NCBI GenBank assembly: GCA_937951485.1
Contig: CALEDJ010000015.1
Location: 45,311 to 109,310 of the forward strand
Source: an uncultured bacterium
Lineage (GTDB): Bacteria; Hydrogenedentota; Hydrogenedentia; Hydrogenedentales; CAILVY01
Direction of reading: 5' to 3'
DNA: 64,000 nucleotides
Positions 24,106 to 49,863 of this stretch are shown here, in pieces. The notes beneath the pieces were generated by a model. It had not been told where the DNA came from and ran no database searches. It saw nothing but the letters and a program-made list of their open reading frames with translations. Numbering within the stretch: the first letter of the stretch is position 1; each line of letters starts with the position of its first letter. The position numbers and the translations under genes are program-made.

Positions 24106-24172
24106 AACATAAACCCTTTTCCAAAGCCCACTGACGCTTTGGATGGTCTCTGTAAACACTTCTGGTTCGGAA

Positions 24173-31885: not shown

Positions 31886-33022
31886 ATGCGCATCCTGATT
31901 CCCACAATGGACTATCCGCCCGCGGCGGGCGGCATCGCCAGCGTAACGCTGGAACTTTCGCGGGAACTGGCCGCCATGGGTCATGTGGTGACCATTGTGG
32001 CGCCCCCAGCCCCTGACATGGCCGCGTTTGATCGGGGGGAACCGGCGCACGTCATCCGATTCGCGGGACGCCGGCGCGGGTGCTTCTGCTTCCTTCCTTT
32101 GTGCTGGAAGACCTGGCGGCTCGCGGGGCGGGCGGACCTGATTCTCGCCATCAACGCGACATATGGCGGGATCATCGCGCGCGGCGGGCGCCTCTTGTTC
32201 GGCCCGCCGTACCTTGTGTTCGCCCATGCCGATGAATGCCTCCGGTACAGGCGCGCGCCAGTCGTGCGGACGTTGCTGCGGTCGGTGTATCGCCGCGCGA
32301 ACACCGTCGTCGCCCTCAGTCGGCATGCGCGGCGCAACCTGGAATTGGTCGGCGTGCCTGAACGCGACATTGCGCTGGTCCTGCCCGGCGCACGGCTGCC
32401 GGAACCGCTCCCGGCAGCGGCGATCCATGCTGTCCGGGAGCGGTTCGATATCTGCGACAGCAACATGATCCTCGCCGTTGGCCGTTTCCTCCCCCACAAG
32501 GGCCATCTCACGCTGGTCAAGGCGATGCCGCAGGTGCTGGAGCGTCATCCGAACACGCATCTTGTCATGGCGGGCCAAGGACCCTGCCTGGGAGCGTGTC
32601 TGGACAAGGCGCGGGCGCTGGGCATTGAAGGGCAGGTGCATTGTACCGGCCATGTGGATGACGCGACGCTGGAAGCCCTCTACCAGGCGTGTGATGTATT
32701 TGCCCTGCCCATTGAGGATGCGCAGGAACAGGGGTTGGAACTGGTATTCACCGAAGCCCACGCCCGGGGAAAACCTGTCGTGGCGGGGCGGGTCGCCGGT
32801 GTTCCAGACCTCGTCATTGACGGACAAACCGGGTTCCTCGTGGAACCACAGAACCCGGACGCGCTGGCGGACCACATTGCCGCGATCCTCGATGACCCTC
32901 AACTGGCAAAGCGCCTGGGCGAGGCGGGTCGCCGCCGCATCGAAGAAGAACTCAACTGGCGGGCGTTTGCGGAAAAAGTGATCGCGGCCGCATCGCGGAA
33001 AGGCGGGGCTATCGCGCCGTGA
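31886..33022 (+). CDS. GT4-family (GT-B fold) glycosyltransferase
   Basis: N-terminal [21 protein letters not shown] and the C-terminal [30 protein letters not shown] motif, equivalent to the E-X7-E motif of GT4 enzymes. Confidence 0.8.
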
Positions 33023-36000: not shown

Positions 36001-36047
36001 GCGTTTGCCAGGAAGCCCGAAAAGGGGGTTCCGGGCGAATCAATCAC
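33009..36047 (-). CDS. Long composite ORF with no stop between two modules. The N-terminal roughly 700 aa is a secreted protein with a signal peptide and a PEP-CTERM-like tail (VPVP, TM segment, RRMHPRRR). The C-terminal 299 aa is a prepilin-type N-terminal cleavage/methylation H-X9-DG (DUF1559) pilin-like protein
   Basis: Signal peptide [23 protein letters not shown] from a probable GTG start near 36047. An Asp-rich calcium-binding-like loop ([12 protein letters not shown]). The tail is ..[45 protein letters not shown], then [25 protein letters not shown] (class III signal), then [16 protein letters not shown] (H-X9-DG). An internal ATG at 33908 or 33899 would start the pilin-like module as a separate gene. 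Confidence 0.5.
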
Positions 36048-36695
36048 GAAAATCTCATTCGAGACTTTCGTGATTGGGTCTTTTTCCGGGCGGCGTGCCG
36101 CCCGGGCGTCCAGGCAAGCCTGGACGCATGAAAGCGGTGGCAAGCCGGCGCAGTGCAAAAAAGCGTTACCCCCTCGTGACACCGCTCCCGCGCTGTCACA
36201 TAACAGCGAAGAAAAACACGGAACCTGACACAGGAAAATGCGAATGTTTCTGATCATCGTGCGCATAAACGCCGCCCTCGGGCGTTTTTGGGCGCACCCG
36301 GCAACAGGGAGCAGCGGCGGGAATCATCAGGCGATCATCGCAATGTCAATGATGCATGATCTTTGCCGCCGCCTTCCCACGAAGGCGCGCGCCACCTCGA
36401 GTTACACACTGACGGCACGACACGCGCCGCCCCCATCGGCAGGTCTTCGGACTTGCGGGCACACCGCGCGATCGCGTCTCTCGACGCGCCGCCCGGCACT
36501 CTACTGGACGCCGCTTCCCAGCCTCCGGGGTGGAGGCCAGTGCTTCGTGGCGCCGTTCGTTCCCGCTTACCGCTGCGGGGCAGTTCCGGACTTCCACCGG
36601 ATTCCCTCTTAGCCGGAAACGCCAGGCATGCGTTCCCGGGCCGATAGTGATTTCAGTATAGGCCATCGCGAGTGAAAAAGCAATCGCTGCCGGAT

Positions 36696-37241
36696 TCACT
36701 TGGGCTGATACCTGAACTTCTGCGCTCCGATGGTGGCCTGGGCCATCAGCCCGGATTCATCCATGACGAACACCATGACACCCTCGGCGTATTTGGCGGC
36801 GGCGGTGACCCCGGACCTGTTTGCCACGGCAGAGGTGACTGCATCGAAAGCAAGGGTGCCGCTTTTGAGGCGATCAATCGCGTCCTTTGTTTCGAAGCAG
36901 ATGATCATGGTGTAGGCCTGTCCGCCGATTTGCCCTCCAAATGTCACCTGGGTTACGTCGCAATATCCCACAATCGCGCCCAATTCATAAAGCACGCCCC
37001 TGCCATAGGTGCCGCCGGCAATCATGCCCCCCTTGCCAACCCTGGGAAACACGGCGTAACCCCGGGCGTCACGGAGTATCGCGTCAATGCCCGGCGCTTT
37101 GAATTCGGCGAACGACAACACATCCTGCGCTGCTCTTTCGAGGCGTTCCTTGCCGGCCCGGGTATCGGGCGCCGTCGCGCACGCCGTCAACATGATTGCG
37201 AGCATCGCCGGAGCGACAACTGAAATGAACCGTCGGTGCAT
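36696..37241 (-). CDS. Lipoprotein with Ysc84/SYLF-like (DUF500) lipid-binding domain
   Basis: Lipobox LTAC after the signal peptide MHRRFISVVAPAMLAIM. Gly-rich GGMIAGGTYGRGVL...FGGQIGGQAY pattern typical of SYLF domains. AGGAAG RBS. Confidence 0.55.
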   Translation of the reverse strand: MHRRFISVVAPAMLAIMLTACATAPDTRAGKERLERAAQDVLSFAEFKAPGIDAILRDARGYAVFPRVGKGGMIAGGTYGRGVLYELGAIVGYCDVTQVTFGGQIGGQAYTMIICFETKDAIDRLKSGTLAFDAVTSAVANRSGVTAAAKYAEGVMVFVMDESGLMAQATIGAQKFRYQPK

Positions 37242-37431
37242 CGTCACTTCCTTTCGGTTTCAGGATGTTCATCATGGTCGTCTGGAAACAACTTTCGTCA
37301 ACATTTTATAACCGGATCGTGATTCCGACGCAAAGGCCTGATAGCGGCATTTCCAGATGCTCATGATACAACAAAAGAAACGAATGTCAAACAGCCATAA
37401 TTCCGTACAAACACTTTGGAGATACCGCGAA

Positions 37432-39291
37432 TCACGTCGTACCGTCATTTGGGATTCGTGAATACCGTTTCAGAAGGCGCACCGCGCCGGTTATTGCGAC
37501 GATAACGGCAAGACATAACAAGGCACACAGCCCACCTGCCGGGATTGCCTCGACCACAGAGAGCAGGGTGTGGTCTGTCTGGATCACAGAGAATGCGTCG
37601 CTGATAACACAGAAGTAAATACCGGTATCGGTGTAATCCAGTTCTTCGATGGTAAAGACGGGCGCGTTGGGACCGACTGGGATTGCAATTTTCGCCGGAT
37701 CTTCCTTGAACCATTCGTACTGGGGCGGACCGGCAGCGCCCGCGACCTCAACCATGAAGGTATGCGAAGAACCGGCTTCCGCATAAATCACGGGAGGCGG
37801 CTGACGGACAATGTGCAGATCGCCCCGGATGATCGCCACGGTATGCGAGTCGTCGGGGGCCATTACATTGCCGACAAGGTCCACCGCGTCGGACACTGTT
37901 ACAGTGGCGATGCCTTCGTCCGCGGCTTCAACAGGGCGGTCGATCGAGACCTCATAGGCGCGGTCGTTCACCCAGAGACCGTCGCCCCCTCCGTCGGTCG
38001 GGCTTGCGGTGATGACATGGCCCGCCCTGGCGGTGACGGCGACTGTCGGAAACTTCGTTTCATTCATGTCCTTGCTGAAGACCAGCGTCATGCGCGGGCG
38101 CGATCCCAGCGGCGCCGCCGCATGGTCAACATCAAACGAGACCAACACCGGCGGTACGGCATCAATGACATAGATTTCACTGGTGAAATTGCCATTGCCG
38201 GAGCCGGGGCCGCCGAGCATGTTCTGATTATAACTGCGGTCGCGAATGGAATCGTTGTCTTCCAGTTTTACGGCAAGGGTCCCGGCGCCTGTGACGTTGT
38301 GAACGCCAATTTCGTACTCCCTGTTCGTGATGCGCCGCACCGCCACCGGCGAGGAAAAAGAGACTTCGCCCACCGTCTTGACGGCAAAATCCCCCGCGTC
38401 CACGCCGGTCACCCCTTCGCTGAAACGCGCGATGAAACGCACCGTGCCGGCGGGGGCGGGGCTGGGATCGGACCGCTGAATCGAAACCACCAGGGGCGGT
38501 TTCCGGTCCCCCCACAGCACGGCGTTGATATACAGGCGCTGCACATGAACGTTGGACAATGTGGACGCGCCCGCCGTGTTGCCGGTGTGATGAAAGGAGA
38601 CAACCCGGCCCGCACCGAATTCCCGCACCGCCACCGCGTGGTTGCCCCAGCCGTCGGTCATCAGCGGAACAGCCGGCCAAGGGTCGAAGGACAGTATCAA
38701 GCCTTCCTTGCGTCCGCTGCGAAATACGAATGCATCCGGCAAATTGCGCAGCACAGGGTGGTCGGCCTGGTCTGGAATTTTTGTGACGGTTATATCGGTA
38801 ACGCCCCAACCGCGCATCCTGTCAATGACGGTCAGGTCCCACATCGCCGAAGACAGACCCCCGAATTGCGGCGGAATCGCCATTTGCGCCGCATTGTTTT
38901 CAGACCCTACATATGCGCCGCCCTCATCGCGCACATATTGCACCAACCGCGTCACCGCGGAAACAGGCAGGATATAGGAATTCGGTCCGCCGCCATTCAG
39001 ATGCACCACAGCGTCGAAACTGTCGGGCATGGGGTTGAAACCCGTCCAGCGGCCCTGTGTGTTGGCGCTGTAGGTCACCGAAATGCCGGCGTTCGTCATC
39101 GCACGGACCAGCGCTTTGGTATTGGCATTCAGCATGTCTGGGACCGGTGTTCCCTCGTCGTCGTCCCAGAGCAACAGCACATTCGGTCCGGCAATGGCGG
39201 CGTTCGCCACACACACTGTCAACAGCAGAAACAGAGCATAACGGCGTGGTCTGGCAGATGGTATCATCGGAAGGATTCGCAACGGCATCAT
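37432..39291 (-). CDS. Secreted protein: ThuA-like (class I glutamine-amidotransferase-like) domain, Ig-like domains and a C-terminal TM anchor
   Basis: Signal peptide RRYALFLLLTVCVANAAIA. ThuA-like region (VVHLNGGG...GRVVSFHHTGN...LYINAVLWG). C-terminal AGGLCALLCLAVIVAITGAVRLLKRYSR. The start overlaps the upstream sulfatase-like stop (ATGA). Confidence 0.55.
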   Translation of the reverse strand: MMPLRILPMIPSARPRRYALFLLLTVCVANAAIAGPNVLLLWDDDEGTPVPDMLNANTKALVRAMTNAGISVTYSANTQGRWTGFNPMPDSFDAVVHLNGGGPNSYILPVSAVTRLVQYVRDEGGAYVGSENNAAQMAIPPQFGGLSSAMWDLTVIDRMRGWGVTDITVTKIPDQADHPVLRNLPDAFVFRSGRKEGLILSFDPWPAVPLMTDGWGNHAVAVREFGAGRVVSFHHTGNTAGASTLSNVHVQRLYINAVLWGDRKPPLVVSIQRSDPSPAPAGTVRFIARFSEGVTGVDAGDFAVKTVGEVSFSSPVAVRRITNREYEIGVHNVTGAGTLAVKLEDNDSIRDRSYNQNMLGGPGSGNGNFTSEIYVIDAVPPVLVSFDVDHAAAPLGSRPRMTLVFSKDMNETKFPTVAVTARAGHVITASPTDGGGDGLWVNDRAYEVSIDRPVEAADEGIATVTVSDAVDLVGNVMAPDDSHTVAIIRGDLHIVRQPPPVIYAEAGSSHTFMVEVAGAAGPPQYEWFKEDPAKIAIPVGPNAPVFTIEELDYTDTGIYFCVISDAFSVIQTDHTLLSVVEAIPAGGLCALLCLAVIVAITGAVRLLKRYSRIPNDGTT

Positions 39292-41162
39292 TCGACATAT
39301 CCCAGGGCGCGCAATTGCTCGAAACGGGCATTGATATCTTCGTCGGAGGGCGCTTCGGGGATTTCTTCTCCTTGCTCGAATCGGATAAGCCGGAATCCGT
39401 TCATGACGGCCCAGTGGTTATCGGTGCCGGGTTTCAGCGTGATTTCAAAAATACCGTCGTCGGTTTCATAAATGCCGGCATCCACAAAAAGATATGTGTG
39501 ATGGCCCACGGCACAATCATCTTTTTTGACAAGCGAAAAGTCCTCGTCGCCGCGCAGACGCACTGCAAACGCGGAAGCAGGATGATCGAGATAATCGCTC
39601 ATACAAAACATTCTGATTTGGACGCGATAGCGAGCCGGAGGCACCTCATAGCGGAAAGTCAGCGGCGGGGGGGTCTCCAGCCAGGCGCGGGTCCATAAAC
39701 GCCGCCAATCGGTGTCGTATGCCCACTTATCATCACGCAGGTAGTTGTTGAAATCGGCGTTTCGATGGATTGCCAGCGCTTCCTGGGGAAACGCATTGGT
39801 GGCAATGGTGTCATGAATAAACAAAACCACGACGCGTTCCGGGAGCGCGCGATAGGCCTCCCATTTCGGCAGAATCTCCCGTTCGACATATCTTTTCAAC
39901 GTTGCGGCTGCGTCCGGATATTCTTGAATAACGTTAGGGCGTGTCGGAAATACATCCGGCACAGGCCACAAGTATTCGCGTTCATTATGCATATCCCATT
40001 CGTATTTGAAATCCCTGCTCCGGAGAATCAGGCCGGGCTTGCCGTCGTAACCGCCCGCGACATACTTTGATAAGGCATACGGCCGACCTTCAGATTTCCC
40101 TTCCTGGCGCAACAGCGGTAAGATGCTCCTCCCGTCAAAGGCCGCGTTCGTTTCAAGATGCAGCAGGTCCACCAGTGTGGGCACAATATCCACATTCTCT
40201 GTGATATCGTTGACTACCCTGCCCGGGGGAACGCCCGGCCCGGCGAGGATGAAAGGCACACGCATCAGCAGGTCATAACTGGCGGGGACATGTCCCCATC
40301 GGATGCCGTCTTCGCCCAGAAGGTCTCCGTGGTCCGACCCGATAACGATGACGGCGTCATCGAACAGGCCCAGCGTCTCCAGTTTCCAGAACAACAAGCC
40401 TAACTGATGGTCGCTGTAGAGAATGCTTCCGTCATACAGCCCCTCCAGGTGCCGCCGCTCTTCCGGCGAAAAGCGACATTCGTACTTCGACACAGGCGTG
40501 CCATTCTGGATTTGTTCCGAAGTGAAGTCCGGGTCAATCCACAGGTCATAGGGCGCGTCCAGAATATGCGGAAAATGGGTGTCAAGGGTATGAATATAAA
40601 GGAAAAAAGGTTGCCGGGGGGTATTCGTCAGCCATTGAAATATGCGCCGGTTCAGCGTGGCGAAACTGGCGTAATATGCGCGATCGCGTTCATCAGGGCG
40701 CTCGAAAATCGCTTCGTCAAACGCCTGCCACAATCGGCTGCGCGGCGTGAACCACGGATGCGATGTGATCATGGCCGTGTGATAGCCGTTCGCACGGAAT
40801 ATCTCCGGAGCGAGCAACTCGTCCGGTGGACATTTCCGCGCCACCTCGGTGCCTTCCACCGATTCATGCACCATTACGGGGAAGTATCTGCCGGTCATGT
40901 ACGACGGCACGGAGACGGTCGTCCACAATCCCTGCGTGAAATGATGCGCCGCGCGCACACCCCTCGCCGCCAGGGCGTCCATGTTCGGCGAGGTGCGCCG
41001 CGCATACCCGTGGCACGAGAGGCTGTCCGCGCGAAGCGCGTCCAGCACGATCCAGATGACATTCGGTCGTTTGTCTCCGGCATCCGGCGTTCCTTGCGCC
41101 CGGGCCGCAAGGCTCCCGCAGAACACGGAAAAGAGAACTATCGCCACCATAAACTGTCGCAT
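39288..41162 (-). CDS. Sulfatase-like hydrolase/transferase (alkaline-phosphatase superfamily), secreted
   Basis: Signal peptide MRQFMVAIVLFSVFCGSLAARAQG. The N-terminal metal-binding block NVIWIVLDALRADSL is followed by a degenerate signature TVSVPSYMTGR in place of C-x-P-x-R, so it may not be a true formylglycine sulfatase. AAGGAG RBS before the ATG at 41162. Confidence 0.7.
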   Translation of the reverse strand: MRQFMVAIVLFSVFCGSLAARAQGTPDAGDKRPNVIWIVLDALRADSLSCHGYARRTSPNMDALAARGVRAAHHFTQGLWTTVSVPSYMTGRYFPVMVHESVEGTEVARKCPPDELLAPEIFRANGYHTAMITSHPWFTPRSRLWQAFDEAIFERPDERDRAYYASFATLNRRIFQWLTNTPRQPFFLYIHTLDTHFPHILDAPYDLWIDPDFTSEQIQNGTPVSKYECRFSPEERRHLEGLYDGSILYSDHQLGLLFWKLETLGLFDDAVIVIGSDHGDLLGEDGIRWGHVPASYDLLMRVPFILAGPGVPPGRVVNDITENVDIVPTLVDLLHLETNAAFDGRSILPLLRQEGKSEGRPYALSKYVAGGYDGKPGLILRSRDFKYEWDMHNEREYLWPVPDVFPTRPNVIQEYPDAAATLKRYVEREILPKWEAYRALPERVVVLFIHDTIATNAFPQEALAIHRNADFNNYLRDDKWAYDTDWRRLWTRAWLETPPPLTFRYEVPPARYRVQIRMFCMSDYLDHPASAFAVRLRGDEDFSLVKKDDCAVGHHTYLFVDAGIYETDDGIFEITLKPGTDNHWAVMNGFRLIRFEQGEEIPEAPSDEDINARFEQLRALGYVE

Positions 41163-41330
41163 CCGGCATACTCCTTGCCCGGCCAATGACATACATCCGC
41201 GAAACACTCGTGAAACATCATGCTTCAACGCTCTTTATACAATAATTCGCCACGGATTTCATGCTTTCGACGGTCTCGCGGAGGAGGAAAGTGCCAGAGG
41301 AACGGCGCCTGCGCAACAGGAAGAAGAAAC

Positions 41331-41407
41331 TGGCGCGCCTGGTGCGACTCGAACGCACTACCTACGGCTTAGAAGGCCGTTGCTCTATCCGGATGAGCTA
41401 CAGGCGC
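41331..41407 (-). tRNA. tRNA-Arg (anticodon TCT) with encoded CCA
   Basis: Reverse complement folds as GCGCCTG-TA-GCTC-ATCCGGATA-GAGC-A-ACGGC-CTTCTAA-GCCGT-AGGTA-GTGCG-TTCGAGT-CGCAC-CAGGCGC-G-CCA. All four stems are perfect, with a 7-nt anticodon loop and a TTCGAGT T-loop. Confidence 0.85.
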
Positions 41408-41581
41408 GCATGCCGGCCGTTGCGGCCCTTCATCGCACTGCACGACTATGTGCGCAACACATTATCCCACAATCCACATGGACCTGTCTATCAGCAATCA
41501 CCGATAGTGGCAATTGAGCGGGGTGCGTAGTAGAATCGGCACAGTTCATAAGATTTATGCAGAACTTTACACGATGCCCCG

Positions 41582-43648
41582 ATGACACGTTCTCTTGGCG
41601 ACAAAGAACACAACGGCAACAAGGCAGCCAATCCGCTCCGATTCATGACTGATCCGGTATCTGCATTTCCGATCAAACGGTCCTGGTATGCGGGAAGTAT
41701 CGCTGAACTGCATAGCGTTTCGGATGATCAAATACTTCTCCATCTGATCAAGGACGATCGGTACGCCATCCTCCCCACCCAGCAAGATGCGTGGGCGGAA
41801 CAGTTGCCTATCCTGCGGGCAGCGCTCTCGGGGTATTCGGGTATGTTGTACTTGGAATATACCATTCCCAGAATGGGGCGCCGGGTGGATGCGGTTGTGT
41901 TGATAGACGGGGTAGTTCTGGTAATCGAGTTTAAGATCGGCGCCCATGAATACCTCGCAAGCGATTTGGATCAAGCCTACGATTATGCTGCCGATCTCAA
42001 GTATTTCCATGAAGGAAGTCACGACTTATCGGTAGTGCCCATCCTTGTTGCGTCACAGGCGCGAGACCGTAATCCAGTGGTCCATCCGCACCCCACAGTG
42101 CGGGGATTATATAAGCCGATTTGCACCAATGCGCATGGACTCCGCGCAGTTATTGATCACATATTAGAGAAGGTTCCGAAAGCGTCCATTGATCCCGATG
42201 TATGGGTTTCGGCCCGCTATGCTCCCACTCCTACTATTGTCGAGGCAGCGCGCGCCCTTTATGCCGGCCACAACGTGGCAGACATCTCCCGCAGTGATGC
42301 GGGCGCCAAGAATCTGCACGAAACATCGGATCGTCTGGCCGGGATCATCGAAGAGTCGCGCAGTCTGAAGAAGAAGGCTGTGTGCTTTGTGACCGGTGTG
42401 CCGGGAGCGGGTAAAACCCTGGTGGGATTGAACATTGCCACGAAGTACAACGACTCCGAAAACGATTTGCACAGTGTCTTTCTTTCCGGCAATGGGCCTC
42501 TGGTGGCAATACTTCGTGAGGCATTGGCCCGCGACAGTGTCCAGCGGGAACGCGAGCAGGGGCGCAGAATCCGTAAGGGGGATGCTGCAACGCAAGTGAA
42601 GGCGTTCATTCAAAATGTTCATCATTTCCGTGATGAGTGCATCCGGGATGCGCACCGTCCACCGGTGGATCACGTAGCACTATTCGATGAGGCACAGCGT
42701 GCGTGGGACAAGGAACAGACCGCCTCATTTATGCGACGAAAAAAGAGATTGGGCGGCTTCAATATTTCTGAGCCGGAATACCTGATATCATGTATGGATC
42801 GTCACGGGGATTGGGCCGTTGTAGTGTGCCTGGTTGGCGGCGGCCAGGAAATCAATACCGGTGAAGCAGGCATTGGGGAATGGATTGAGGCTGTTCGCCG
42901 ATCTTTCGGGCACTGGCACCTGCACATATCACCGCACCTGACTGACAGCGAGTATGGCGCCGGGCGCATCCTTGAGGAGATTAAGGAATTGCCGCATGTG
43001 CATTACCAGGAAGACTTGCATCTTGGCGTTTCCATGCGTTCATTTCGGTCGGAGCACGTTTCAGGTTTCGTTAAAAAAGTCCTGGACTGTGAAGTATGCG
43101 GTGCACGCGGATTGCTGCAGGAATTGAAGCCACGATATCCCCTTGTTCTAACCCGCAACCTCGATCATGCAAAACAGTGGCTGCGTGATCACGCCAGTGG
43201 CAACGAACGGTATGGGATTGTGGTTTCATCCCAGGCGGAACGCCTGAAACCATATGCGATTGATGTGCGTAGTCCTGTGAATCCTGTGAAATGGTTCCTG
43301 GATGGGAAAAATGATGTTCGTTCGTCATACTATCTGGAAGATGTGGCCACGGAGTTCCACGTGCAGGGTCTTGAACTGGATTGGGTGTGTGTTTCGTGGG
43401 ATGGTGACTTTCGGCACGATAAGAGCGGATGGCAGTATTTTTCTTTTCGTGGCACGAAATGGCAGAGAATCAAAAAAGAAGCGCGGAAAAAATATCTTAA
43501 AAATGCTTATCGCGTGCTGCTGACCCGCGCGCGCCAGGGAATGGTGATATTTGTTCCGGAAGGGTCTTCCAGCGATCCCACCAGAGTCCCGGACTATTAT
43601 GATTCTACTTATTCCTACCTGCGGGAAATTGGCGTTCCAGAACTATGA
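41582..43648 (+). CDS. PD-(D/E)xK (NERD-like) nuclease domain fused to a DUF2075 / Schlafen-group-3-like P-loop NTPase (helicase-like); candidate defense protein
   Basis: N-terminal nuclease core ..RRVDAVVLIDGVVLVIEFK (D...ExK). Central Walker A CFVTGVPGAGKTLVGLNIA and Walker B-like VALFDEAQRAW; 688 aa. GC about 52% against about 63% elsewhere. Adjacent to tRNA-Arg. Confidence 0.7.
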   Translation: MTRSLGDKEHNGNKAANPLRFMTDPVSAFPIKRSWYAGSIAELHSVSDDQILLHLIKDDRYAILPTQQDAWAEQLPILRAALSGYSGMLYLEYTIPRMGRRVDAVVLIDGVVLVIEFKIGAHEYLASDLDQAYDYAADLKYFHEGSHDLSVVPILVASQARDRNPVVHPHPTVRGLYKPICTNAHGLRAVIDHILEKVPKASIDPDVWVSARYAPTPTIVEAARALYAGHNVADISRSDAGAKNLHETSDRLAGIIEESRSLKKKAVCFVTGVPGAGKTLVGLNIATKYNDSENDLHSVFLSGNGPLVAILREALARDSVQREREQGRRIRKGDAATQVKAFIQNVHHFRDECIRDAHRPPVDHVALFDEAQRAWDKEQTASFMRRKKRLGGFNISEPEYLISCMDRHGDWAVVVCLVGGGQEINTGEAGIGEWIEAVRRSFGHWHLHISPHLTDSEYGAGRILEEIKELPHVHYQEDLHLGVSMRSFRSEHVSGFVKKVLDCEVCGARGLLQELKPRYPLVLTRNLDHAKQWLRDHASGNERYGIVVSSQAERLKPYAIDVRSPVNPVKWFLDGKNDVRSSYYLEDVATEFHVQGLELDWVCVSWDGDFRHDKSGWQYFSFRGTKWQRIKKEARKKYLKNAYRVLLTRARQGMVIFVPEGSSSDPTRVPDYYDSTYSYLREIGVPEL

Positions 43649-43669
43649 TGACACCAGGCATTGATTGTG

Positions 43670-45250
43670 TCATTCGGTTTCCCAGAGATGCGCAATAAGC
43701 GGGTCGTATTTGCCGAGGTGCATGTTGAGGATGGTGCGGGATCGGCGGCGGCTCCAGATGGGGTCACGGGTGATGGTGCGCAGGTGCGCGTAGTATGCCG
43801 CGAGTTGTTCGTCCTCCAATTGAATGTCCTCTGAAAGGACTGATTCAAGGTATCCCAGCGGCAGATTGCGGCGAAAATGCCCTATGACCCAGTGGTTGCG
43901 ATCCGGGATGGGCCAGCGCGCCAGAAGAGGATCGCATATGCCCATGATGTCCACAAAATGGACTTTCGGCCCGGCATGATAAGGGCCGACGCCCGCCGCG
44001 ATGGTGCTTTGCACAACAGACGCATCCGATTCGCGGATGAGTCTCCCGGCATTCTCGCGTCCGCGAAATACCGCCACCGAGATGTTTTCCTGGTCGTCGC
44101 ATGCACTGAACAGACCGAGCGCCGGATAGGAAAACAGGCGTTCGTTGCGAATCTGAATGCCTTCAAGAAACATTTCGGGCGTGGCATCACACCCGAAACG
44201 GGGTCCGCTCAGGAGAGGCGGATGGGTCGCGATCATGCCCGTGGCGCATGCGCCGATCATGGCGGAGAGCCAGCAACGTCGATCGGTCAGACGGGGCGCG
44301 CGGATGAGCAATGTCACGGCCAGAAGGAACGGAGTGGTGAGAAATCGCCCCGACATGAAGTCGCCGCCGATGCGCACCACGTAAGCCAGGTAGAGCAGGA
44401 TGCTGAAGGCGATGCCGAGGGACTTGCTGTCACGCGCTGAGAAGGCGTAGAAAAGGGCGGCGGCGCAAATTGCCGGCGTCAAGAGATCGTGGTGGAGCGA
44501 ATGGGCGAGATATCGAAGTCCCTGCGCCATCAAAGACATTGCCGGAACGCCCGCGCCGAGTTTGGCATAGGCCGTGTTGGGAATGAGGAAGCCGTAGTAA
44601 ACAACAGAGAACGTTTCCCAGGCGATCAGTGGAAGCAGTCCCAATGCGCCCCAAGCGGCCACGCGCCATGATCTCATCGCCATGAATTCCGCCAAGAGCA
44701 TCGGCAAATACAGGAGAATGAGATTATGGCGGTTGACGGCGCTCAGGCACGCAATGCACACCAGCAGCGCGAATCGCCCAGGCGTGGTCGGTTCCCGAAA
44801 ATAGACCATGAGAAACAGGGCGGCAAGCAGATGGCTGAGCGGATTTTCCAGGCCGGAAGTTGAAAATTCCACAAAAGCCGTGGAGAAGATGCACAGCAAT
44901 AAACCCAGGACGGCGCCCTGATAACTCCTGGCGATGCGGCAGGCCAACAGCGCCGCAGTCAGCATGCTGACTGCGGTGGAAAACAGGAGCGTGCTGTAAA
45001 ACACCTCTCTCGTCAACGCATGCAGGGGGATCAACGCCAGCATCCAGAGCGGATGCGTATAGGTCTGCACGCGTTCTGCAATGTTCCACCGAAGGCCATG
45101 GCCGTTCAGGAAATTGTCTATTGTCCGGTAAGTGATATATGCATCATCACAAAGCCACGCTGTACGCAGCACCATGACGAGAAACACGAACAGAAGGATG
45201 CCCGGGAAGACTCCGGGCAGAATTGTTTCCTTTCTTTCCCAAGAACTCAT
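43670..45250 (-). CDS. GT-C fold polytopic membrane glycosyltransferase (hypothetical)
   Basis: About 12 TM helices with a DDAYITYR acidic motif in the first extracytoplasmic loop, as in GT-C transferases (ArnT/PMT/arabinofuranosyltransferases). Confidence 0.5.
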   Translation of the reverse strand: MSSWERKETILPGVFPGILLFVFLVMVLRTAWLCDDAYITYRTIDNFLNGHGLRWNIAERVQTYTHPLWMLALIPLHALTREVFYSTLLFSTAVSMLTAALLACRIARSYQGAVLGLLLCIFSTAFVEFSTSGLENPLSHLLAALFLMVYFREPTTPGRFALLVCIACLSAVNRHNLILLYLPMLLAEFMAMRSWRVAAWGALGLLPLIAWETFSVVYYGFLIPNTAYAKLGAGVPAMSLMAQGLRYLAHSLHHDLLTPAICAAALFYAFSARDSKSLGIAFSILLYLAYVVRIGGDFMSGRFLTTPFLLAVTLLIRAPRLTDRRCWLSAMIGACATGMIATHPPLLSGPRFGCDATPEMFLEGIQIRNERLFSYPALGLFSACDDQENISVAVFRGRENAGRLIRESDASVVQSTIAAGVGPYHAGPKVHFVDIMGICDPLLARWPIPDRNHWVIGHFRRNLPLGYLESVLSEDIQLEDEQLAAYYAHLRTITRDPIWSRRRSRTILNMHLGKYDPLIAHLWETE

Positions 45251-45494
45251 GGGGACATGGTAAGTATCCTGCAGGGTACCTGCAAATCATCTGAATATGA
45301 AGACCGACGGGGCTCGGAAGTTTACTGACTTGAACTGATTCCACTTCGCAATTGGCAGGCATAGTTAAAGCATGTTGCACCGGGCTGGGGGAAGCGGATA
45401 AGATGCGTGCCATCGCATGGGAGAGGACTGAATCAGGCGTTGCACAGCGGGAGCGCAGCCGATCCGGCGGCTTGACGCTGCAACGGGGGAAAGA

Positions 45495-48167
45495 ATGCAG
45501 GTCGAAGAGGCGTTTGAACGGTTTTTCGGCAACGGCGTTGCGCCGGTCCACGGCGGCGAGTATGGGGATGGCAACTTTGGCCGGTGGATTACCGACGGGG
45601 ATGGCAATCCTGCCTATCTCTATGAGTGGAATGACCCCGAGGCAGACCACTGGCACATGCTGGGCAATGATCGTATTGTGGCAACGGCGCACAGCGGCGG
45701 CCATGTGCAACTCTATGATTGGACGCGCGGCGGCAAAGTGGTCAACTGGCACGCCCCGCGTCGCGGGGCAAACGCCGGCGGCTTCAAGTTTGTCCAGACC
45801 CGCGCGGATACGTGGTGCACTCATTGGTCACGGCTGCCGCAAGGCGCGGGACTCCGGCGCGTCTTCGGCATGGGTTATTTCGAGAAGGCGTCACGGCATG
45901 CAGACCTGGAGGTGGTGGAGCGCATCGAGGCGCCTGCGGGCGATGACCCCGTGTTGCTTTCCACGACGGCAGTGCGAAACTATGCCGCGGCAACGCGGGA
46001 GATTGTGTTGGTGGAGTATTGGGGGGCGCGGCTGCACCAGTTGACGCCGGCGCCGGTGATGACCCACGGCCTGCACCGCTTTTGGGAATGGCGGCGCGAC
46101 CGGCTCAATCGGCGTTTCCGGGTCCACGCCGAGTGGGACGCGGCCTTGGCCGCCATCCGGATAGTTCACCGCCATGCATCCTGGCGCGGAACACAGCACC
46201 CCGCGTGCCCGACCTTGTACGACCAGCATCCCAAACAGATTTTTCTGGCCGCTCTCGACCCGCTTCCGGGCGGTTATCGAGGATTTATTGCAGACCCCGC
46301 CCGTTTTTTCCGCGATAATGATCATGCGGCGGCGTCCGCCATGGACGGTACGATGGACGGCGCGTTGCTATCCCCGCAACGCGCGCATCGGCGCGGCGCG
46401 ATTCTCGCGTTTCGCCGGATATTCCGACTCGCTCCGGGAGAAGAAATACGGTTCCGCTATCTGTACGGCTGCGCGGATGGGGAATGCGTCCCTGACCTGG
46501 TCGAGCGATACCGTCAACCAAGAGAGACGCCGCCACAACCTACGCTGGAACTGCACACGCCGGAAGATGCATGGCTGACACGCGAGTTGCGCTGGCACGC
46601 CCATTATCTGCAAGCGGGGTCGTTGTATTCCGATTTTTTCCAAACGCACTTCGTGGATCAGGGCAGCGCCTATGGATACCTTCAGGGCGCATCGGGGGCG
46701 CCGCGCGACTTCTGCCTCTTTGCGTTGCCGCTCGTCTATCTGCGCCCCGACCTCGCCAAGGACATCCTGCGGATGCTGATGCGGGCGCAACGCGCGGGAA
46801 CAGGGGCATTTCCCTATGCCTTCATCGGGCATGGGAAAACCACCGGGGCGTTGGTCCACAGCCGCAGCAGCGACCTTGATCTTTTCTTTTTCTGGGCGCT
46901 GGCTGAATATCTCGGCGCGACGCGGGATTTGGCGTTTTTTGACGAAATGCTTCCTTATTACCCGCCCAATTCAGGACGGAAGGGCACCGTGCTGGAACAT
47001 GTTCATGCTGCGTTCAGGCATCTTGCTCAGCACATAGGATTGGGGCCGCACGGCCTCATCCGGTGCGGCACAGGCGATTGGAACGACCTGCTCATCGGTC
47101 TTTCCCGTTTCTCCCCGTGGATGATTCTCCGGGGCGAATCGGCGTTGAATGCGGGACTGGCCACGCTGGCCCTGCCGGCCTTGGCCGATGCCATCGAGGC
47201 GAAAGATGCCGACTTCGCGGCGGCATTGCGCGCATTTGCGGAGGGGCAGTCGCGCGCGCTGCGCAGTCTGTGGACCGGACAATGGGTCGCACGCGGCTAC
47301 CGGGGACACGGAGACGCGATGCTTGGTCGCGACAATCTCTTCCTGGACGCGCAAGCCTTCGGCGTACTGGGCGGGGTATGGCGATCCAAGGAAGCGCATA
47401 CGCTGTTTGAGGCGATACGACGCTTGTGCGTGGCGCCGGAGGCGGCTGGCGCACGATGCCTGTGGCCGCCGTTCAAAGGGCCGATGCTGGAACCGGGGTC
47501 CGACACCAACGGCGGTACGTGGGCGGCGGTGGACGCCTGGACGGCATGGGCGTGGGCGACAGTGCAGCCGGAAGCGGCTTGGCGTTTTTACCTGCGAACA
47601 ACTTTGGCGGCGCATGCCGAGGCCTATCCGGATATCTGGTACGGCATCTGGTCCGGGCCGGACACTTACAACGCTTCGTACCACCCGCGCCCGGGTGAAA
47701 CCTTCGATGTGGGCGTCACGCCGATGACGCTGTTTCCCGTGATGAACATGAACCGGCATGCATGCCCGCTGTTCGATGCGATCAAACTGGCGGGAATCCA
47801 TCCCTGTGGCGGGCGCATTGTCATTGACCCGCTGATGCCCTTCGATTCATTCGCACTGCGGCTGCCGATCATCGGCGCAGCATATCTTCCCGGCAGGCAT
47901 CGCGGGTATTACGCGCCGGTAGTGTCCGGCATGTTTTCCTTTTCGGTGCGCCCGCCAGCCGGGCTGAGCGCAACGGCGGCGCGCCTGGAAGTGAACGGCG
48001 TGGAAGTGACGTTTGAATCCGACGGCAACGGCATGCTGCTATTCCAGGCGTTCGGGGAACCGGGAAAACGGGTCTGCTGGGAAATCACAGCGCGGGACAG
48101 TGTCGTCCGGAATAAGTTGTTACGTAATTCAAAGGCTATACCTGACACGCCTGGAGAATCCTTTTGA
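45495..48167 (+). CDS. Large (alpha/alpha)6-barrel glycoside hydrolase / glycoside phosphorylase-like protein (GH94/GH15-like fold)
   Basis: 890 aa. GTGDWNDLL motif of the kind seen in glucoamylase-fold catalytic domains. No signal peptide. Confidence 0.5.
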   Translation: MQVEEAFERFFGNGVAPVHGGEYGDGNFGRWITDGDGNPAYLYEWNDPEADHWHMLGNDRIVATAHSGGHVQLYDWTRGGKVVNWHAPRRGANAGGFKFVQTRADTWCTHWSRLPQGAGLRRVFGMGYFEKASRHADLEVVERIEAPAGDDPVLLSTTAVRNYAAATREIVLVEYWGARLHQLTPAPVMTHGLHRFWEWRRDRLNRRFRVHAEWDAALAAIRIVHRHASWRGTQHPACPTLYDQHPKQIFLAALDPLPGGYRGFIADPARFFRDNDHAAASAMDGTMDGALLSPQRAHRRGAILAFRRIFRLAPGEEIRFRYLYGCADGECVPDLVERYRQPRETPPQPTLELHTPEDAWLTRELRWHAHYLQAGSLYSDFFQTHFVDQGSAYGYLQGASGAPRDFCLFALPLVYLRPDLAKDILRMLMRAQRAGTGAFPYAFIGHGKTTGALVHSRSSDLDLFFFWALAEYLGATRDLAFFDEMLPYYPPNSGRKGTVLEHVHAAFRHLAQHIGLGPHGLIRCGTGDWNDLLIGLSRFSPWMILRGESALNAGLATLALPALADAIEAKDADFAAALRAFAEGQSRALRSLWTGQWVARGYRGHGDAMLGRDNLFLDAQAFGVLGGVWRSKEAHTLFEAIRRLCVAPEAAGARCLWPPFKGPMLEPGSDTNGGTWAAVDAWTAWAWATVQPEAAWRFYLRTTLAAHAEAYPDIWYGIWSGPDTYNASYHPRPGETFDVGVTPMTLFPVMNMNRHACPLFDAIKLAGIHPCGGRIVIDPLMPFDSFALRLPIIGAAYLPGRHRGYYAPVVSGMFSFSVRPPAGLSATAARLEVNGVEVTFESDGNGMLLFQAFGEPGKRVCWEITARDSVVRNKLLRNSKAIPDTPGESF

Positions 48168-48256
48168 ATCAAGTTGATTTCATGGGCTTTTCCTATGCGC
48201 AAAGGTCCTCGTGGGAATTCCTGACACATCATTGCCCTTGTTCCAAGGTATTCCGT

Positions 48257-48316
48257 TTTGTCCCCCTCACCCCACCCCTCTCCCGCTGGGAGAGGGGTGG
48301 GGTGAGGGGGACAAAG
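48257..48316. repeat. Perfect 28-bp-arm inverted repeat (C-rich arm / G-rich arm, 4-nt loop GCTG) between convergent genes
   Basis: TTTGTCCCCCTCACCCCACCCCTCTCCC-GCTG-GGGAGAGGGGTGGGGTGAGGGGGACAAA. Likely a bidirectional terminator or REP-like element. The G-rich arm has four G3+ runs. Confidence 0.7.
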
Positions 48317-48418
48317 CAACACAATCAAAGGCTTTTCTCAGCGCCAAGAATATTTCGGGCGGCACGGGGGGAAGGAAAAAGAACTGACACCGCGCCGATG
48401 GCATATGACGCAAAGAAA

Positions 48419-49138
48419 CTATGCCTTTGTCGTCTGCGCAATCTTTTTTGGCGCTTCCGGCGACGGCAGGTCGGACATCCGGGTGACCGTGAAGCGGTCC
48501 GGGGAGATAATCCCCACCGACACCACCATCCGCACCGCTTCCTCCACGCTCATCTGGCACTGGAGCACGTCTTCCGGTTTGCACAGCAAATACAAGCCCA
48601 CGGAGATGTTGGGCGCGGTGGGCATGAATATTTTGTAAAACAGCCGTCCCTCAGGGTCGCGAATGGTTCCTGTGAGAAACCCCACGGCCCGCATGCCCGG
48701 ATAGGGGAACTCCACAAATACCGCGGCCTTCATGTTGTTGTCGCCTCTCTGGAAGGACACCGTCTCCACGATCTGCTTGGTGGACCCATATACCGTCGCC
48801 ACCAGGGGAATCCGCTGGATGATGGCTTCCGCCAGACCGATGAGGCGGCGGCCCACAACGGCCGTGGCCACCACGCCGACGACGTACAGCAGCGCGAAAA
48901 AGAGGACGATGGAAACCAGGGGAATGGCGTAGTCGGGAAGCCGTCCAAGCCATATGCCGGCATAGCGGCTTATTCTGCCGACCGTGAAATTATAAAGAAA
49001 ATTGACGACGAGCGCGGTGATGCCCACTGGAACGATCACCACAAACCCGGAAATCAGCCTGCTGCGGATGGTTTGCTTTATCTGCATCCACAGACCAGGT
49101 TGCTTTCCTTTTTTCTTTTTCGCTCGTTGGTTCTTCAT
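48419..49138 (-). CDS. DUF502-family membrane protein
   Basis: Two N-terminal TM helices, then the conserved IPLVxxVYGSTKQ motif. GGAGA RBS. Translationally coupled to the upstream paralog. Confidence 0.7.
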   Translation of the reverse strand: MKNQRAKKKKGKQPGLWMQIKQTIRSRLISGFVVIVPVGITALVVNFLYNFTVGRISRYAGIWLGRLPDYAIPLVSIVLFFALLYVVGVVATAVVGRRLIGLAEAIIQRIPLVATVYGSTKQIVETVSFQRGDNNMKAAVFVEFPYPGMRAVGFLTGTIRDPEGRLFYKIFMPTAPNISVGLYLLCKPEDVLQCQMSVEEAVRMVVSVGIISPDRFTVTRMSDLPSPEAPKKIAQTTKA

Positions 49139-49863
49139 GGAGTCTCCGTCACGCGTTTGCCATAGTGACTTTTCTCCGGAGTATTGATTTCCCGTGGTCG
49201 CGCGGTGGCTGTGGCGTCTGCTTCCCTGGCCGGGGTCATGACCAACTCAGGAGGGGCAATAATGCCCGCCGACATCAGCATCTTCACGGCATCTTCCACA
49301 GAAAGGTCCGCATGATACACGAATCTGGGATTCAGCACCTGCAGATAACCGCTGGTGGGATTGGGCGTTGTCGGCACAAAAACCTTGTAACATTCCCCTT
49401 CGCCGTCAATATGTACCATCCCCGTGACAAAGGCGATGGATTTGACGCCGGGCCGGGGAAAATCCACATAAACCGCTGCCTGGTAGTTGCTGCCCGCATC
49501 CTGCGCCGACACCGTCTGCACCAGTCGTTTTGACGCGCCATATACGGTCTTCACCAACGGAATGCGGTGCAGCAGCGCGTCCATTACGGCGATGAGACGT
49601 CGGCCCACAACGGCCGTCGCCACCACGCCGATGATATAGAGCATGGAAAAGAACAGGAAAACTGACAGCGCAATCACTGCGTATTCCGGCATGGGAAGCC
49701 AGTATTTCTTGATAAACGGCACCAGATGCGCGGCGGTGAAGTTGTAGCAGATGATCAGGACGTAGATCGTTACGCCGAGGGGCACCAACACCAGCAATCC
49801 CCGGATGGAATACATCCGGAAATTGTTCTTGATGCGCAGCAGCAGCGAGGGCTTCTGTTTCAT
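49135..49863 (-). CDS. DUF502-family membrane protein (tandem paralog)
   Basis: Same architecture with an IPLVKTVYGASKR motif. Overlaps the downstream paralog by 4 nt. Confidence 0.7.
   Translation of the reverse strand: MKQKPSLLLRIKNNFRMYSIRGLLVLVPLGVTIYVLIICYNFTAAHLVPFIKKYWLPMPEYAVIALSVFLFFSMLYIIGVVATAVVGRRLIAVMDALLHRIPLVKTVYGASKRLVQTVSAQDAGSNYQAAVYVDFPRPGVKSIAFVTGMVHIDGEGECYKVFVPTTPNPTSGYLQVLNPRFVYHADLSVEDAVKMLMSAGIIAPPELVMTPAREADATATARPREINTPEKSHYGKRVTETP

What the first reader, a model, noticed from the sequence alone, without database searches (positions are those of the whole stretch)
41230..43660. Lower-GC single gene encoding PD-(D/E)xK nuclease plus DUF2075 (Schlafen-like) NTPase next to tRNA-Arg: candidate anti-phage defense island
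The 688-aa product joins an N-terminal restriction-endonuclease-fold/NERD-like core (D...EFK) to a DUF2075 P-loop domain (GVPGAGKT), the Schlafen-group-3-like helicase module. Its GC is about 10 points lower than the flanking genes and it sits right beside a tRNA-Arg(TCT), a classic integration hotspot. No partner gene or integrase is visible, so it may be a standalone nuclease-NTPase defense or abortive-infection effector (compare Schlafen-like/Mokosh-type modules), or the remnant of an island.
Basis: partly seen in the sequence, partly recalled or inferred. Interest (0 to 1): 0.65.

Follow-up and report, generated by a model that had tools for sequence, protein, structure and literature searches.

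The report
Nhi-like nuclease-helicase phage-defence gene
This is a single gene for a DNA-cutting enzyme fused to a helicase motor, a member of the already described "Nhi-like" anti-phage family, and it sits in a chromosomal slot where a closely related strain carries a restriction-modification system instead; it is a clear example, but an ordinary one.

Summary
ORF 41582-43648 (+) encodes 688 aa (more likely 667 aa from Met22). It has an N-terminal PD-(D/E)xK nuclease (invariant E92, D103, E116-x-K118) and a DUF2075/SLFN-group-3 SF1 helicase with intact motifs. tRNA-Arg(TCT) lies 175 nt upstream, and this is the lowest-GC 2.2 kb of the window.

The defence reading is supported, and the family is known. 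The protein matches PADLOC PDC-S41 over its full length (E 3.7e-281). It is a full-length homologue (27% identity, E 2e-65) of the Bacillus cereus "Nhi-like" protein verified by Millman et al. 2022, and that protein's own best PADLOC hit is also PDC-S41.

Comparative genomics shows a polymorphic defence slot. In the related MAG contig L004 every flanking gene is syntenic at 83-89% nt, but the slot holds REase-II + C5-methylase + Vsr. A metagenome contig, L114, has a flank 98.9% identical to L004 yet carries the Nhi-like gene.

The tRNA-integration idea is not supported. The cassette lies on the tRNA's 5' side, with no att repeat and no integrase. The gene has diverged about as much as its flanks, so it is an old resident exchanged by flank recombination.

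Verdict: new member of a known kind; interest is low to moderate.

The parts
41582..43648 (+). Nhi-like (PADLOC PDC-S41) nuclease-helicase gene. 688 aa from the first ATG; the probable true start is Met22 at 41645 (667 aa).
   Evidence: ORF. PDC-S41 E 3.7e-281 over profile positions 2-653 of 657. 8000+ homologues; those listed below the query's own entry are 60-76% identical. Homologues start near aa 31-33. aa 1-31 have pLDDT <50.
41678..42061 (+). N-terminal PD-(D/E)xK nuclease core (aa 33-160), with an alpha-beta-beta-beta-alpha-beta topology.
41855..41935 (+). Catalytic motif E92...D103...E116-F-K118 (EYTIPRMGRRVDAVVLIDGVVLVIEFK). Q131 and D134-Y135 follow in the next helix.
   Evidence: Invariant in 40 homologues. 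Conserved in the verified B. cereus Nhi-like protein (EYEILRGGGRRPDILLLINGYLIVIECK). Translation checked.
42203..42325 (+). Very highly conserved bridge segment, aa 208-248 (W..RY.PTPTI.EAARALYAGH.V..ISR.DAGA.NL..T), between nuclease and helicase. Its role is unknown.
   Evidence: Dense run of invariant columns. Partly conserved in B. cereus Nhi-like. Low model confidence. Translation checked.
42374..43558 (+). SF1 helicase/NTPase domain (PF09848, SLFN group 3 / DUF2075), aa 265-659. Contains Walker A at 42395-42418, DEAQ at aa 369-372 and TRARQG at aa 648-653.
   Evidence: Pfam E 1.4e-81. Invariant motifs. Foldseek top PDB hits are SLFN11, RecD, SLFN14 and Upf1.
41538..43678 (.). Exchangeable cassette: the only stretch between about 36.2 and 48.1 kb with no counterpart in the syntenic relative L004.
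   Evidence: blastn of L004 against the window aligns 36194-41537 and 43679-48091 but not the stretch between. Boundary alignments. GC 52.6%, the window minimum.
41507..41536 (+). Promoter-like element (GTGGCA-18 nt-TAGAAT) in the conserved flank, immediately before the cassette boundary. Its role as a shared promoter for whichever cassette occupies the slot is inferred.
   Evidence: Consensus scan, 9 of 12 matches. Conserved in L004 as GTGGTA...TAAAAT, with homology ending just after it. The R-M genes in L004 read in the same direction.
41331..41407 (-). tRNA-Arg(TCT). A conserved flank marker, not part of the cassette. Its 5' end faces the cassette.
   Evidence: ARAGORN. Rfam 66.6 bits. Identical in L004.

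Best explanation
The gene encodes a single-protein anti-phage nuclease-helicase of the Nhi-like family (PADLOC PDC-S41). Most likely mechanism, inferred from characterised relatives: the SF1 helicase module binds and translocates on phage DNA, either on structures or ends produced during phage replication or on DNA carrying a phage-specific feature. The N-terminal PD-(D/E)xK domain, held inactive in the resting full-length protein, then nicks and degrades that DNA, so phage DNA cannot accumulate. Both activities sit in one polypeptide, so no partner gene is needed. At this locus the gene is one allele of a polymorphic core-genome defence slot between the tRNA-Arg promoter and the last codons of a glycosyltransferase gene. 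Other strains carry a type II R-M + Vsr cassette there. Alleles are probably exchanged by homologous recombination through the conserved flanks, downstream of a conserved promoter-like element.

Shown here: domain architecture, catalytic and motor motifs, family membership, homology to a verified defence protein, slot polymorphism, and absence of integration signatures. Inferred: defence activity of this particular protein, its DNA target, autoinhibition, promoter use, and the recombination route. The confidence given (0.8) is for the statement that this is an Nhi-like family defence gene in an exchangeable slot; the mechanistic details are less certain.
For: Family: PDC-S41 E 3.7e-281 over the full length. 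The protein aligns end to end with the B. cereus plasmid Nhi-like homologue (27% identity, E 2e-65) and with the verified Millman protein (aa 15-409, E 2e-45; N-terminal domain alone E 2e-18). The best PADLOC hit of both Bacillus proteins is PDC-S41 (1.4e-114 and 8.8e-76).

Function of relatives (literature). Nhi-like from B. cereus FSL H8-0482 is marked as verified, which I take to mean experimentally, in the supplementary tables of Millman et al. 2022 (bioRxiv 10.1101/2022.05.11.491447). Phages escape it by losing a DNA methylase (10.1101/2022.08.27.505566). Purified PsNhi-like degrades T7, SECphi17 and SPO1 DNA but not E. coli or plasmid DNA (10.1101/2025.07.10.664194). The analogous Nhi needs both nuclease and helicase, its N-terminal 230 aa carry exonuclease and nickase activity that is nearly absent in the full-length protein, and it limits phage DNA accumulation (10.1101/776245).

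Slot: L004 is syntenic on both sides but carries REase_II (E 5e-96), a C5 MTase and Vsr, also at low GC. L114 is 98.9% identical to L004 in the flank yet carries the Nhi-like gene (92% aa identity to the window).

The gene is always solo in 7 other genomic contexts. In three related IMG/VR contigs, of which L104 was annotated and L098 and L106 share its Mza, MTase and Nhi-like genes by tblastn, it sits in a dense defence island. It also occurs on plasmids and on viral contigs.
Against: No experiment exists for this protein or for any member of its close clade (60-76% identity group). The verified relative is only 27% identical. The in vitro target range of PsNhi-like only partly matches its in vivo defence, so the trigger is unresolved. 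The immediate neighbours in the window are housekeeping or envelope genes, not other defence genes. The slot polymorphism rests on two related contigs only, L004 and the short 2.4-kb L114. Promoter and recombination route are inferred from sequence conservation alone.
Confidence: 0.8

Rival explanations
1. Modification-dependent (type IV-like) restriction. The protein specifically recognises methylated or otherwise modified phage DNA and cuts it. The Dcm-type R-M cassette seen in L004 would then be an incompatible alternative allele of the same slot. This is a more specific version of the best explanation, not a contradiction of it.
For: [quoted passage not shown] DUF2075 NTPases are found beside modification-dependent endonucleases (PMC6765204). 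The alternative cargo at this slot is a C5-methylase R-M with Vsr. Vsr, AIPR and EcoRII-C fragments flank homologues in L089 and L002.
Against: PsNhi-like cleaves T7 DNA, which to my knowledge is unmodified, and does not cleave E. coli or plasmid DNA, which to my knowledge carry Dam/Dcm methylation (cleavage result). In L098, L104 and L106 a C5 methylase gene overlaps the Nhi-like start codon by 4 nt, so the two can coexist. No modification-reading domain (SRA, PUA, YTH, DUF3427) was detected.
Confidence: 0.2
2. Abortive-infection effector. Once triggered, the nuclease degrades host as well as phage DNA, so the infected cell dies or arrests instead of clearing the phage.
For: One staphylococcal Nhi homologue was toxic on induction, and Bari et al. 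discuss host DNA damage as a possible mode. The nuclease activities of Nhi are not sequence-specific.
Against: Nhi was reported as direct immunity that prevents phage DNA accumulation. [quoted passage not shown] Nothing in the sequence distinguishes the two modes.
Confidence: 0.12
3. Housekeeping DNA repair or replication nuclease-helicase (Dna2/AddAB/RecB-like) that merely has atypical composition.
Against: A strain with a 98.9% identical flank lacks the gene and has R-M genes there instead. There is no NCBIfam match. Distribution across phyla is patchy, with 60-76% identity between Chlorobi, Hydrogenedentota and candidate-phyla bacteria. Homologues occur on plasmids, on viral contigs and in a defence island. 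GC3 is atypical.
Confidence: 0.04
4. Cargo or remnant of a tRNA-targeting integrative element (genomic island, prophage or satellite) inserted at tRNA-Arg by a site-specific integrase.
For: The gene is adjacent to a tRNA and has low GC. Family members occur on IMG/VR viral contigs, one of them next to tRNA-Asn at a contig end.
Against: The cassette lies on the 5' (promoter) side of the tRNA. To my knowledge, integrases typically target the 3' part of a tRNA gene. There is no repeat of tRNA sequence of 14 nt or more within 36-50 kb. No integrase or transposase was found in the ORFs examined between about 20.6 and 55.2 kb. The tRNA and its promoter region are intact and shared with L004. The gene has diverged in step with its flanks between two lineages. 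Only 1 of 29 other family loci has a tRNA nearby.
Confidence: 0.04

Closest known systems
Nhi-like (Millman et al. 2022, system SG141; marked as verified for the Bacillus cereus FSL H8-0482 gene 2729017301), equivalent here to PADLOC candidate PDC-S41
   Same: A single protein with an N-terminal PD-(D/E)xK nuclease and a DUF2075 SF1 helicase. Homology runs end to end and includes the E..D..ExK motif, the bridge segment and all helicase motifs. Both share the same best PADLOC model. Millman's family table lists one Nhi-like gene in Chlorobaculum limnaeum DSM 1677, the species of the genome that encodes P0078, which is 64% identical to the window protein. It is probably the same gene, but this was not proven.
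   Different: Identity to the verified protein is only 27%, and the window protein is about 60 aa longer (667 against 609-611 aa). Its host is an uncultured lineage, Hydrogenedentota-like judging by its neighbours' homologues, and no member of this 60-76% clade has been tested.
Nhi (SERP2475, Staphylococcus epidermidis; Bari et al. 2022)
   Different: There is no detectable sequence relationship outside the P-loop. The PADLOC Nhi model matches only aa 264-294 with E 2.7e-4. tblastn against plasmids found no staphylococcal homologue. Millman et al. also state that the two share no sequence identity.
Eukaryotic Schlafen group III proteins (SLFN5/11/13/14) and prokaryotic Schlafen nucleases
   Same: The helicase domain belongs to the same Pfam family, PF09848. 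SLFN11 is the top PDB match both by sequence (P-loop region only, E 0.67, not significant) and by fold. Both have antiviral roles.
   Different: There is no Schlafen-core (AlbA_2) RNase domain; the N-terminus is a PD-(D/E)xK DNase fold instead. Bacterial Schlafen defence proteins (PMC13056530) are defined by the RNase domain, which is absent here.
Core-genome defence hotspots with exchangeable cassettes (to my knowledge described in E. coli, Pseudomonas and Vibrio pangenomes)
   Same: Conserved flanking core genes, sharply bounded low-GC cargo, alternative defence systems in the same position in near-identical strains, and no mobility genes.
   Different: Here the slot holds a single gene and abuts the promoter side of a tRNA. 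Only three alleles or contigs were sampled.

Membership tests
Nhi-like / PADLOC PDC-S41 | Significant full-length sequence homology to the verified B. cereus Nhi-like protein and to the family profile | tested here: met
   PDC-S41 E 3.7e-281, profile positions 2-653 of 657. BLASTP against the B. cereus plasmid homologue covers aa 15-667, E 2e-65. BLASTP against the verified protein fragment gives E 2e-45. Both Bacillus proteins hit PDC-S41 best.
Nhi-like / PADLOC PDC-S41 | N-terminal predicted nuclease with intact catalytic residues | tested here: met
Nhi-like / PADLOC PDC-S41 | DUF2075 (PF09848) helicase/NTPase with Walker A and B | tested here: met
   PF09848 E 1.4e-81. GVPGAGKT, DEAQ and TRARQG are invariant.
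Nhi-like / PADLOC PDC-S41 | Single-gene system with no conserved partner | tested here: met
   The cassette holds only this gene. No neighbour is conserved across 7 other genomic contexts.
Nhi-like / PADLOC PDC-S41 | Protects cells against phage infection | not testable with these tools
   Known only for the 27%-identical B. cereus protein and for PsNhi-like, from the literature.
Nhi sensu stricto (SERP2475 family) | Sequence homology to SERP2475 across nuclease and helicase | tested here: not met
   The PADLOC Nhi model hits only the P-loop, aa 264-294, E 2.7e-4. The SERP2475 sequence itself was not available for a direct comparison.
Schlafen family (group III) | N-terminal Schlafen core / AlbA_2 RNase domain | tested here: not met
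   No Pfam hit N-terminal of aa 250. The N-terminal fold is PD-(D/E)xK.
Schlafen family (group III) | C-terminal SLFN group-3 helicase domain | tested here: met
   PF09848 E 1.4e-81. SLFN11 is the top Foldseek hit.
Mokosh | RNA helicase plus PLD-family nuclease (HxK motif) | tested here: not met
   No PADLOC Mokosh hit and no PLD domain. The nuclease is PD-(D/E)xK.
tRNA-integrated genomic island | Integrase, plus a direct repeat of the tRNA 3' end bounding cargo downstream of the tRNA | tested here: not met
   No repeat. No integrase. The cargo lies upstream of the tRNA 5' end.
NERD domain (PF08378) | Match to the Pfam NERD profile | tested here: not met
   No NERD hit at E<=0.01. Only the general PD-(D/E)xK fold is supported.

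The most novel reading that the evidence does not exclude
In this lineage the Nhi-like gene and the Dcm-type R-M + Vsr cassette may be mutually exclusive alleles of one promoter-equipped slot because they are functionally incompatible. The Nhi-like enzyme of this clade would be a 5-methylcytosine (or other methylation) dependent nuclease-helicase. A strain could then keep either 'cut methylated DNA' or 'methylate self and cut unmethylated DNA', but not both. The population would hold both alleles as a balanced pair that phages cannot evade simultaneously. The very highly conserved bridge segment (aa 208-248) could be the modification-sensing or autoinhibitory element.
Probability: 0.12. Interest if true: 0.55.

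Novelty: new member of a known kind. Interest (0 to 1): 0.27.

Why it matters
The finding adds an uncultured-lineage member to a defence family that is widespread (more than 8000 homologues) but has barely been characterised. It shows that PADLOC's untested candidate PDC-S41 is the same family as the verified Nhi-like protein, which is useful for annotation. It also documents a sharply bounded defence slot in which a nuclease-helicase and an R-M system replace each other between near-identical strains without any mobility genes. None of this changes current understanding. Its value lies in annotation, and the 60-76% clade, with its strikingly conserved bridge motif, is a reasonable candidate for biochemical work on how Nhi-like enzymes choose their DNA targets.

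Tried and rejected
- Searched 36-50 kb for att-type direct repeats of the tRNA. Only chance-level matches of 14-33 nt appeared, none involving the tRNA 3' end.
- Looked for tRNA-Arg next to the neighbour-gene homologues in 60 GTDB loci. None had it. Those loci are only 35-45% identical and are not syntenic, so they say nothing about the slot.
- Searched PDB by sequence. Only an insignificant SLFN11 P-loop match appeared (E 0.67).
- The full-length fold search gave low TM-scores (0.2-0.3) because of multi-domain geometry. It is useful only to name the helicase class.
- A search with the N-terminal domain alone against 1.84 billion cluster representatives found 2353 relatives. The full-length ones are all about 645-830 aa with the domain at the N-terminus, so no alternative architectures were revealed.
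- Tested whether a C5 methylase next to the gene is a family feature. It occurs only in one lineage, L098/L104/L106.
- Tested whether tRNA adjacency is a family feature. It holds for 1 of 29 other loci.
- NCBIfam gave no hit. A literature search for 'PDC-S41' found nothing.
- The contig labelled 'Bacteriophage sp.', MT836127.1, showed no phage structural genes in PHROGs, only Nudix and methyltransferase hits, so it is not good evidence for phage carriage.
- The Mokosh, Schlafen-RNase and NERD assignments were considered and rejected (see membership tests).
Full report
**Observation.** The window contains the ORF exactly as described: 41582-43648 on the plus strand, 688 codons. tRNA-Arg(TCT) lies on the minus strand at 41331-41407 (Rfam). 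The quoted motifs are real. GVPGAGKT sits at aa 272-279, and EYTIPRMGRRVDAVVLIDGVVLVIEFK carries E92, D103 and E116-F-K118. Pfam places aa 265-659 in PF09848 (SLFN group-3 helicase, formerly DUF2075) with E 1.4e-81, and finds nothing in the N-terminal 260 aa, NERD included.

The composition claim is directionally right but overstated. The gene is 52.8% GC, against 56.3% and 57.7% for the two adjacent genes and 60.3% for the window. GC3 is 54.9%, against 64.5-80% in 15 of the other 16 ORFs measured; the unannotated ORF 48164-49165 is similar, at 56.6%. The 2.2-kb stretch is the lowest-GC segment of its length in the whole window. Homologues begin at residue 31-33, and aa 1-31 are modelled as disordered. 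The real start is therefore probably Met22 at 41645, giving 667 aa.

**Anatomy of the protein.** I aligned 40 homologues of 59-73% identity. E92, D103, E116, K118, Q131 and D134-Y135 are invariant, and so are all the helicase motifs: Walker A, DEAQ, GGGQEI, QGLELDW and TRARQG.

- An AlphaFold model of the N-terminal 242 aa (pLDDT 83) shows the alpha-beta-beta-beta-alpha-beta core of the restriction-endonuclease fold.
- The full-length model (pLDDT 77) is closest to SLFN11, RecD, SLFN14 and Upf1, all SF1 helicases.
- Between the two domains lies a segment, aa 208-248, that is more conserved than either catalytic domain but is modelled with low confidence. I cannot explain it.

**Family.** PADLOC gives a full-length hit to PDC-S41 (E 3.7e-281). 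PDC models are untested candidates derived by 'guilt-by-embedding' in BREX, DISARM and type I R-M loci (bioRxiv 10.1101/2024.01.29.577857).

The literature describes two defence proteins with exactly this architecture. One is Nhi of Staphylococcus epidermidis (Bari et al., bioRxiv 10.1101/776245). The other is 'Nhi-like' of Bacillus cereus FSL H8-0482 (Millman et al. 2022, bioRxiv 10.1101/2022.05.11.491447). I recovered the first 399 aa of the verified Nhi-like protein from Millman's supplementary table.

- That fragment aligns to the window protein over aa 15-409 (27% identity, E 2e-45), and the alignment includes the nuclease motif.
- The N-terminal domains alone align with E 2e-18.
- Its best PADLOC hit is PDC-S41 (8.8e-76), against 6e-7 for the 'Nhi' model.
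- A full-length B. cereus megaplasmid homologue aligns end to end with the window protein (E 2e-65) and also hits PDC-S41 (1.4e-114).
- Millman's family table lists one Nhi-like gene in Chlorobaculum limnaeum DSM 1677, the species of the genome that encodes P0078, which is 64% identical to the window protein.

So PDC-S41 and Nhi-like are the same family, and the window gene belongs to it. By contrast, the PADLOC Nhi model touches only the P-loop (E 2.7e-4). This protein therefore works like Nhi but is not a sequence-family member. There is no Schlafen RNase core, no PLD nuclease (so not Mokosh) and no NCBIfam housekeeping assignment.

**Distribution.** More than 8000 homologues were scored. 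The hits listed below the query's own entry are 60-76% identical, although they come from Chlorobi, Hydrogenedentota, candidate-phyla bacteria and others, which is a horizontal-transfer pattern.

- The gene is solo in each of seven other genomic contexts. Its neighbours range from SecA and RNase Y to toxin-antitoxin pairs, orphan methylases, and Vsr, AIPR or EcoRII-C fragments.
- Homologues occur on Persicobacter and Bacillus plasmids and on 22 IMG/VR contigs.
- In one of those lineages, annotated for L104 and shared by L098 and L106 by tblastn, the gene ends a run MzaC-MzaD-MzaE-C5 methylase-Nhi-like. In L104, candidate PDC-S05 and a type I methylase follow, which makes it a textbook defence island.

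**The locus: the decisive comparative test.** I used the adjacent 526-aa glycosyltransferase-like gene to fetch related genomes.

- One MAG contig, L004 (CAZLII010000042.1), is collinear with the window from about 36.2 to 48.1 kb at 83-89% nt identity. It has the same Ysc84-like, Ig-like and sulfatase genes, an identical tRNA-Arg(TCT), and the same glycosyltransferase and GH94-like genes. The one exception is the stretch corresponding to window 41538-43678.
- There L004 carries a type II restriction enzyme (PADLOC REase_II, E 5e-96), a C5 cytosine methylase and a Vsr endonuclease, at 47-54% GC.
- A short metagenome contig, L114, is 98.9% identical to L004 across the glycosyltransferase. Downstream it carries the Nhi-like gene, 88.8% nt and 92% aa identical to the window's, against 84.3% nt for the adjacent gene.

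Two conclusions follow. First, within one species-level population the slot is polymorphic: Nhi-like in one strain, R-M + Vsr in another. Second, the Nhi-like gene has diverged between the two lineages about as much as its flanks. It is therefore an old occupant of this slot and not a recent arrival.

The boundaries are sharp. On one side homology stops inside the last three codons of the glycosyltransferase; the window and L114 read ...ACC GAA TGA where L004 reads ...GCG GGT TAA. On the other side it stops just after a promoter-like GTGGCA-18-TAGAAT element (41507-41536) that is conserved in L004. Both cassettes read away from that element, which suggests one resident promoter serves whichever cassette is present. 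This is inferred, not shown.

**The tRNA.** The tRNA is a flank marker and not an integration site. The cassette lies upstream of the tRNA's 5' end and beyond its own promoter-like element. There is no duplicate of tRNA sequence. No integrase or transposase was found in the ORFs examined between about 20.6 and 55.2 kb. Only 1 of 29 other family loci has any tRNA nearby. Exchange by homologous recombination through the flanks is the simplest account.

**Mechanism.** Nothing about the mechanism can be measured here, so I rely on characterised relatives.

- Nhi needs both its nuclease and its helicase. Its isolated N-terminal 230 aa have 3'-5' exonuclease and nickase activity that is nearly absent in the full-length protein, which suggests autoinhibition. 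It unwinds DNA from either polarity, it blocks phage DNA accumulation, and a phage SSB protects against it.
- Phages escape B. cereus Nhi-like by losing a DNA methylase.
- Purified PsNhi-like degrades T7, SECphi17 and SPO1 DNA but spares E. coli and plasmid DNA.

Every catalytic and motor residue is intact in the window protein. I therefore expect the same behaviour: a self-contained sensor-effector that loads on a phage-specific DNA feature and destroys it. Whether that feature is a replication intermediate, a free end or a modification is open. A type IV-like, methylation-dependent variant deserves about 20%. It is tempting because the alternative allele is a Dcm-type R-M. It is weakened by T7 cleavage in vitro and by the methylase-Nhi-like operon in L104.

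**Verdict.** The gene is a new member of a known family in a polymorphic defence slot. It is a clean and well-supported case but not a surprising one.

Noticed in passing
window 36421-36660 (-): A cobalamin riboswitch (Rfam RF00174, 97 bits) lies upstream of the 1085-aa ORF 33009-36266 (-). That ORF carries a TSP3 repeat and, oddly, an internal prepilin N-methylation/DUF1559 motif at aa 809-862. The region is conserved at 89% nt in L004. This is unusual cargo for a B12 riboswitch, or the long ORF may be two genes.
   Followed up: no
window 42203-42325 (aa 208-248 of the Nhi-like protein): The segment W..RY.PTPTI.EAARALYAGH.V..ISR.DAGA.NL..T, between nuclease and helicase, is the most invariant part of the N-terminal half. 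It is partly conserved even in the 27%-identical B. cereus Nhi-like protein, yet it is modelled with low confidence. Its function is unknown; it might be an autoinhibitory or DNA-sensing element.
   Followed up: partly
L104 583-9950 (IMG/VR UViG_3300029250_000192); also L098 and L106: One co-directional run reads MzaC, MzaD, MzaE, C5 methylase, Nhi-like homologue, and the methylase stop overlaps the Nhi-like start by 4 nt. In L104, PDC-S05, a SIR2/pAgo-like helicase and a type I methylase follow. The arrangement suggests an Mza-linked or methylase-linked sub-type of Nhi-like in one lineage.
   Followed up: partly
PADLOC model PDC-S41 versus the Millman Nhi-like protein: The verified B. cereus Nhi-like protein scores best against PADLOC's 'untested candidate' PDC-S41 (8.8e-76) and only 6e-7 against the model named Nhi. 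PDC-S41 is therefore effectively the Nhi-like family under another name.
   Followed up: yes
window 48257-48315: A perfect 28-nt inverted repeat with a 3-nt loop (TTTGTCCCCCTCACCCCACCCCTCTCCC / GGGAGAGGGGTGGGGTGAGGGGGACAAA) lies about 90 nt after the stop of the GH94-like gene, inside the predicted ORF 48164-49165. It could be a strong terminator or a repeat element.
   Followed up: no
window about 23800-24800: This is the second-lowest GC stretch of the window (54.4%). It is a gap of about 1 kb with no long ORF, between an AcrB-type transporter gene (20607-23777, -) and a TPR/PMT_2 gene (24806-27133, +).
   Followed up: no
L114 2345-2377 (OMKS01031052.1): The contig ends in CTGTCTCTTATACACATCTCCGAGCCCACGAGA, which I recognise as a Nextera adapter sequence. 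The public metagenome contig therefore carries untrimmed adapter at its end.
   Followed up: no
L091 (MT836127.1, 'UNVERIFIED: Bacteriophage sp.'): This 12.7-kb record carries a homologue that tblastn puts at 47% identity to the window protein. PHROGs finds only Nudix and DNA methyltransferase hits and no structural genes. It looks more like a bacterial or defence-island fragment than a phage.
   Followed up: partly
L089 9505-12394 and L002 9670-9930: Fragments of Dcm-associated modules sit directly beside Nhi-like homologues in unrelated genomes: Vsr and an AIPR fragment in L089, and an EcoRII-C fragment in L002. This echoes the Dcm + Vsr cassette that replaces the gene in L004. It may be coincidence within defence islands, or a functional link.
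   Followed up: no
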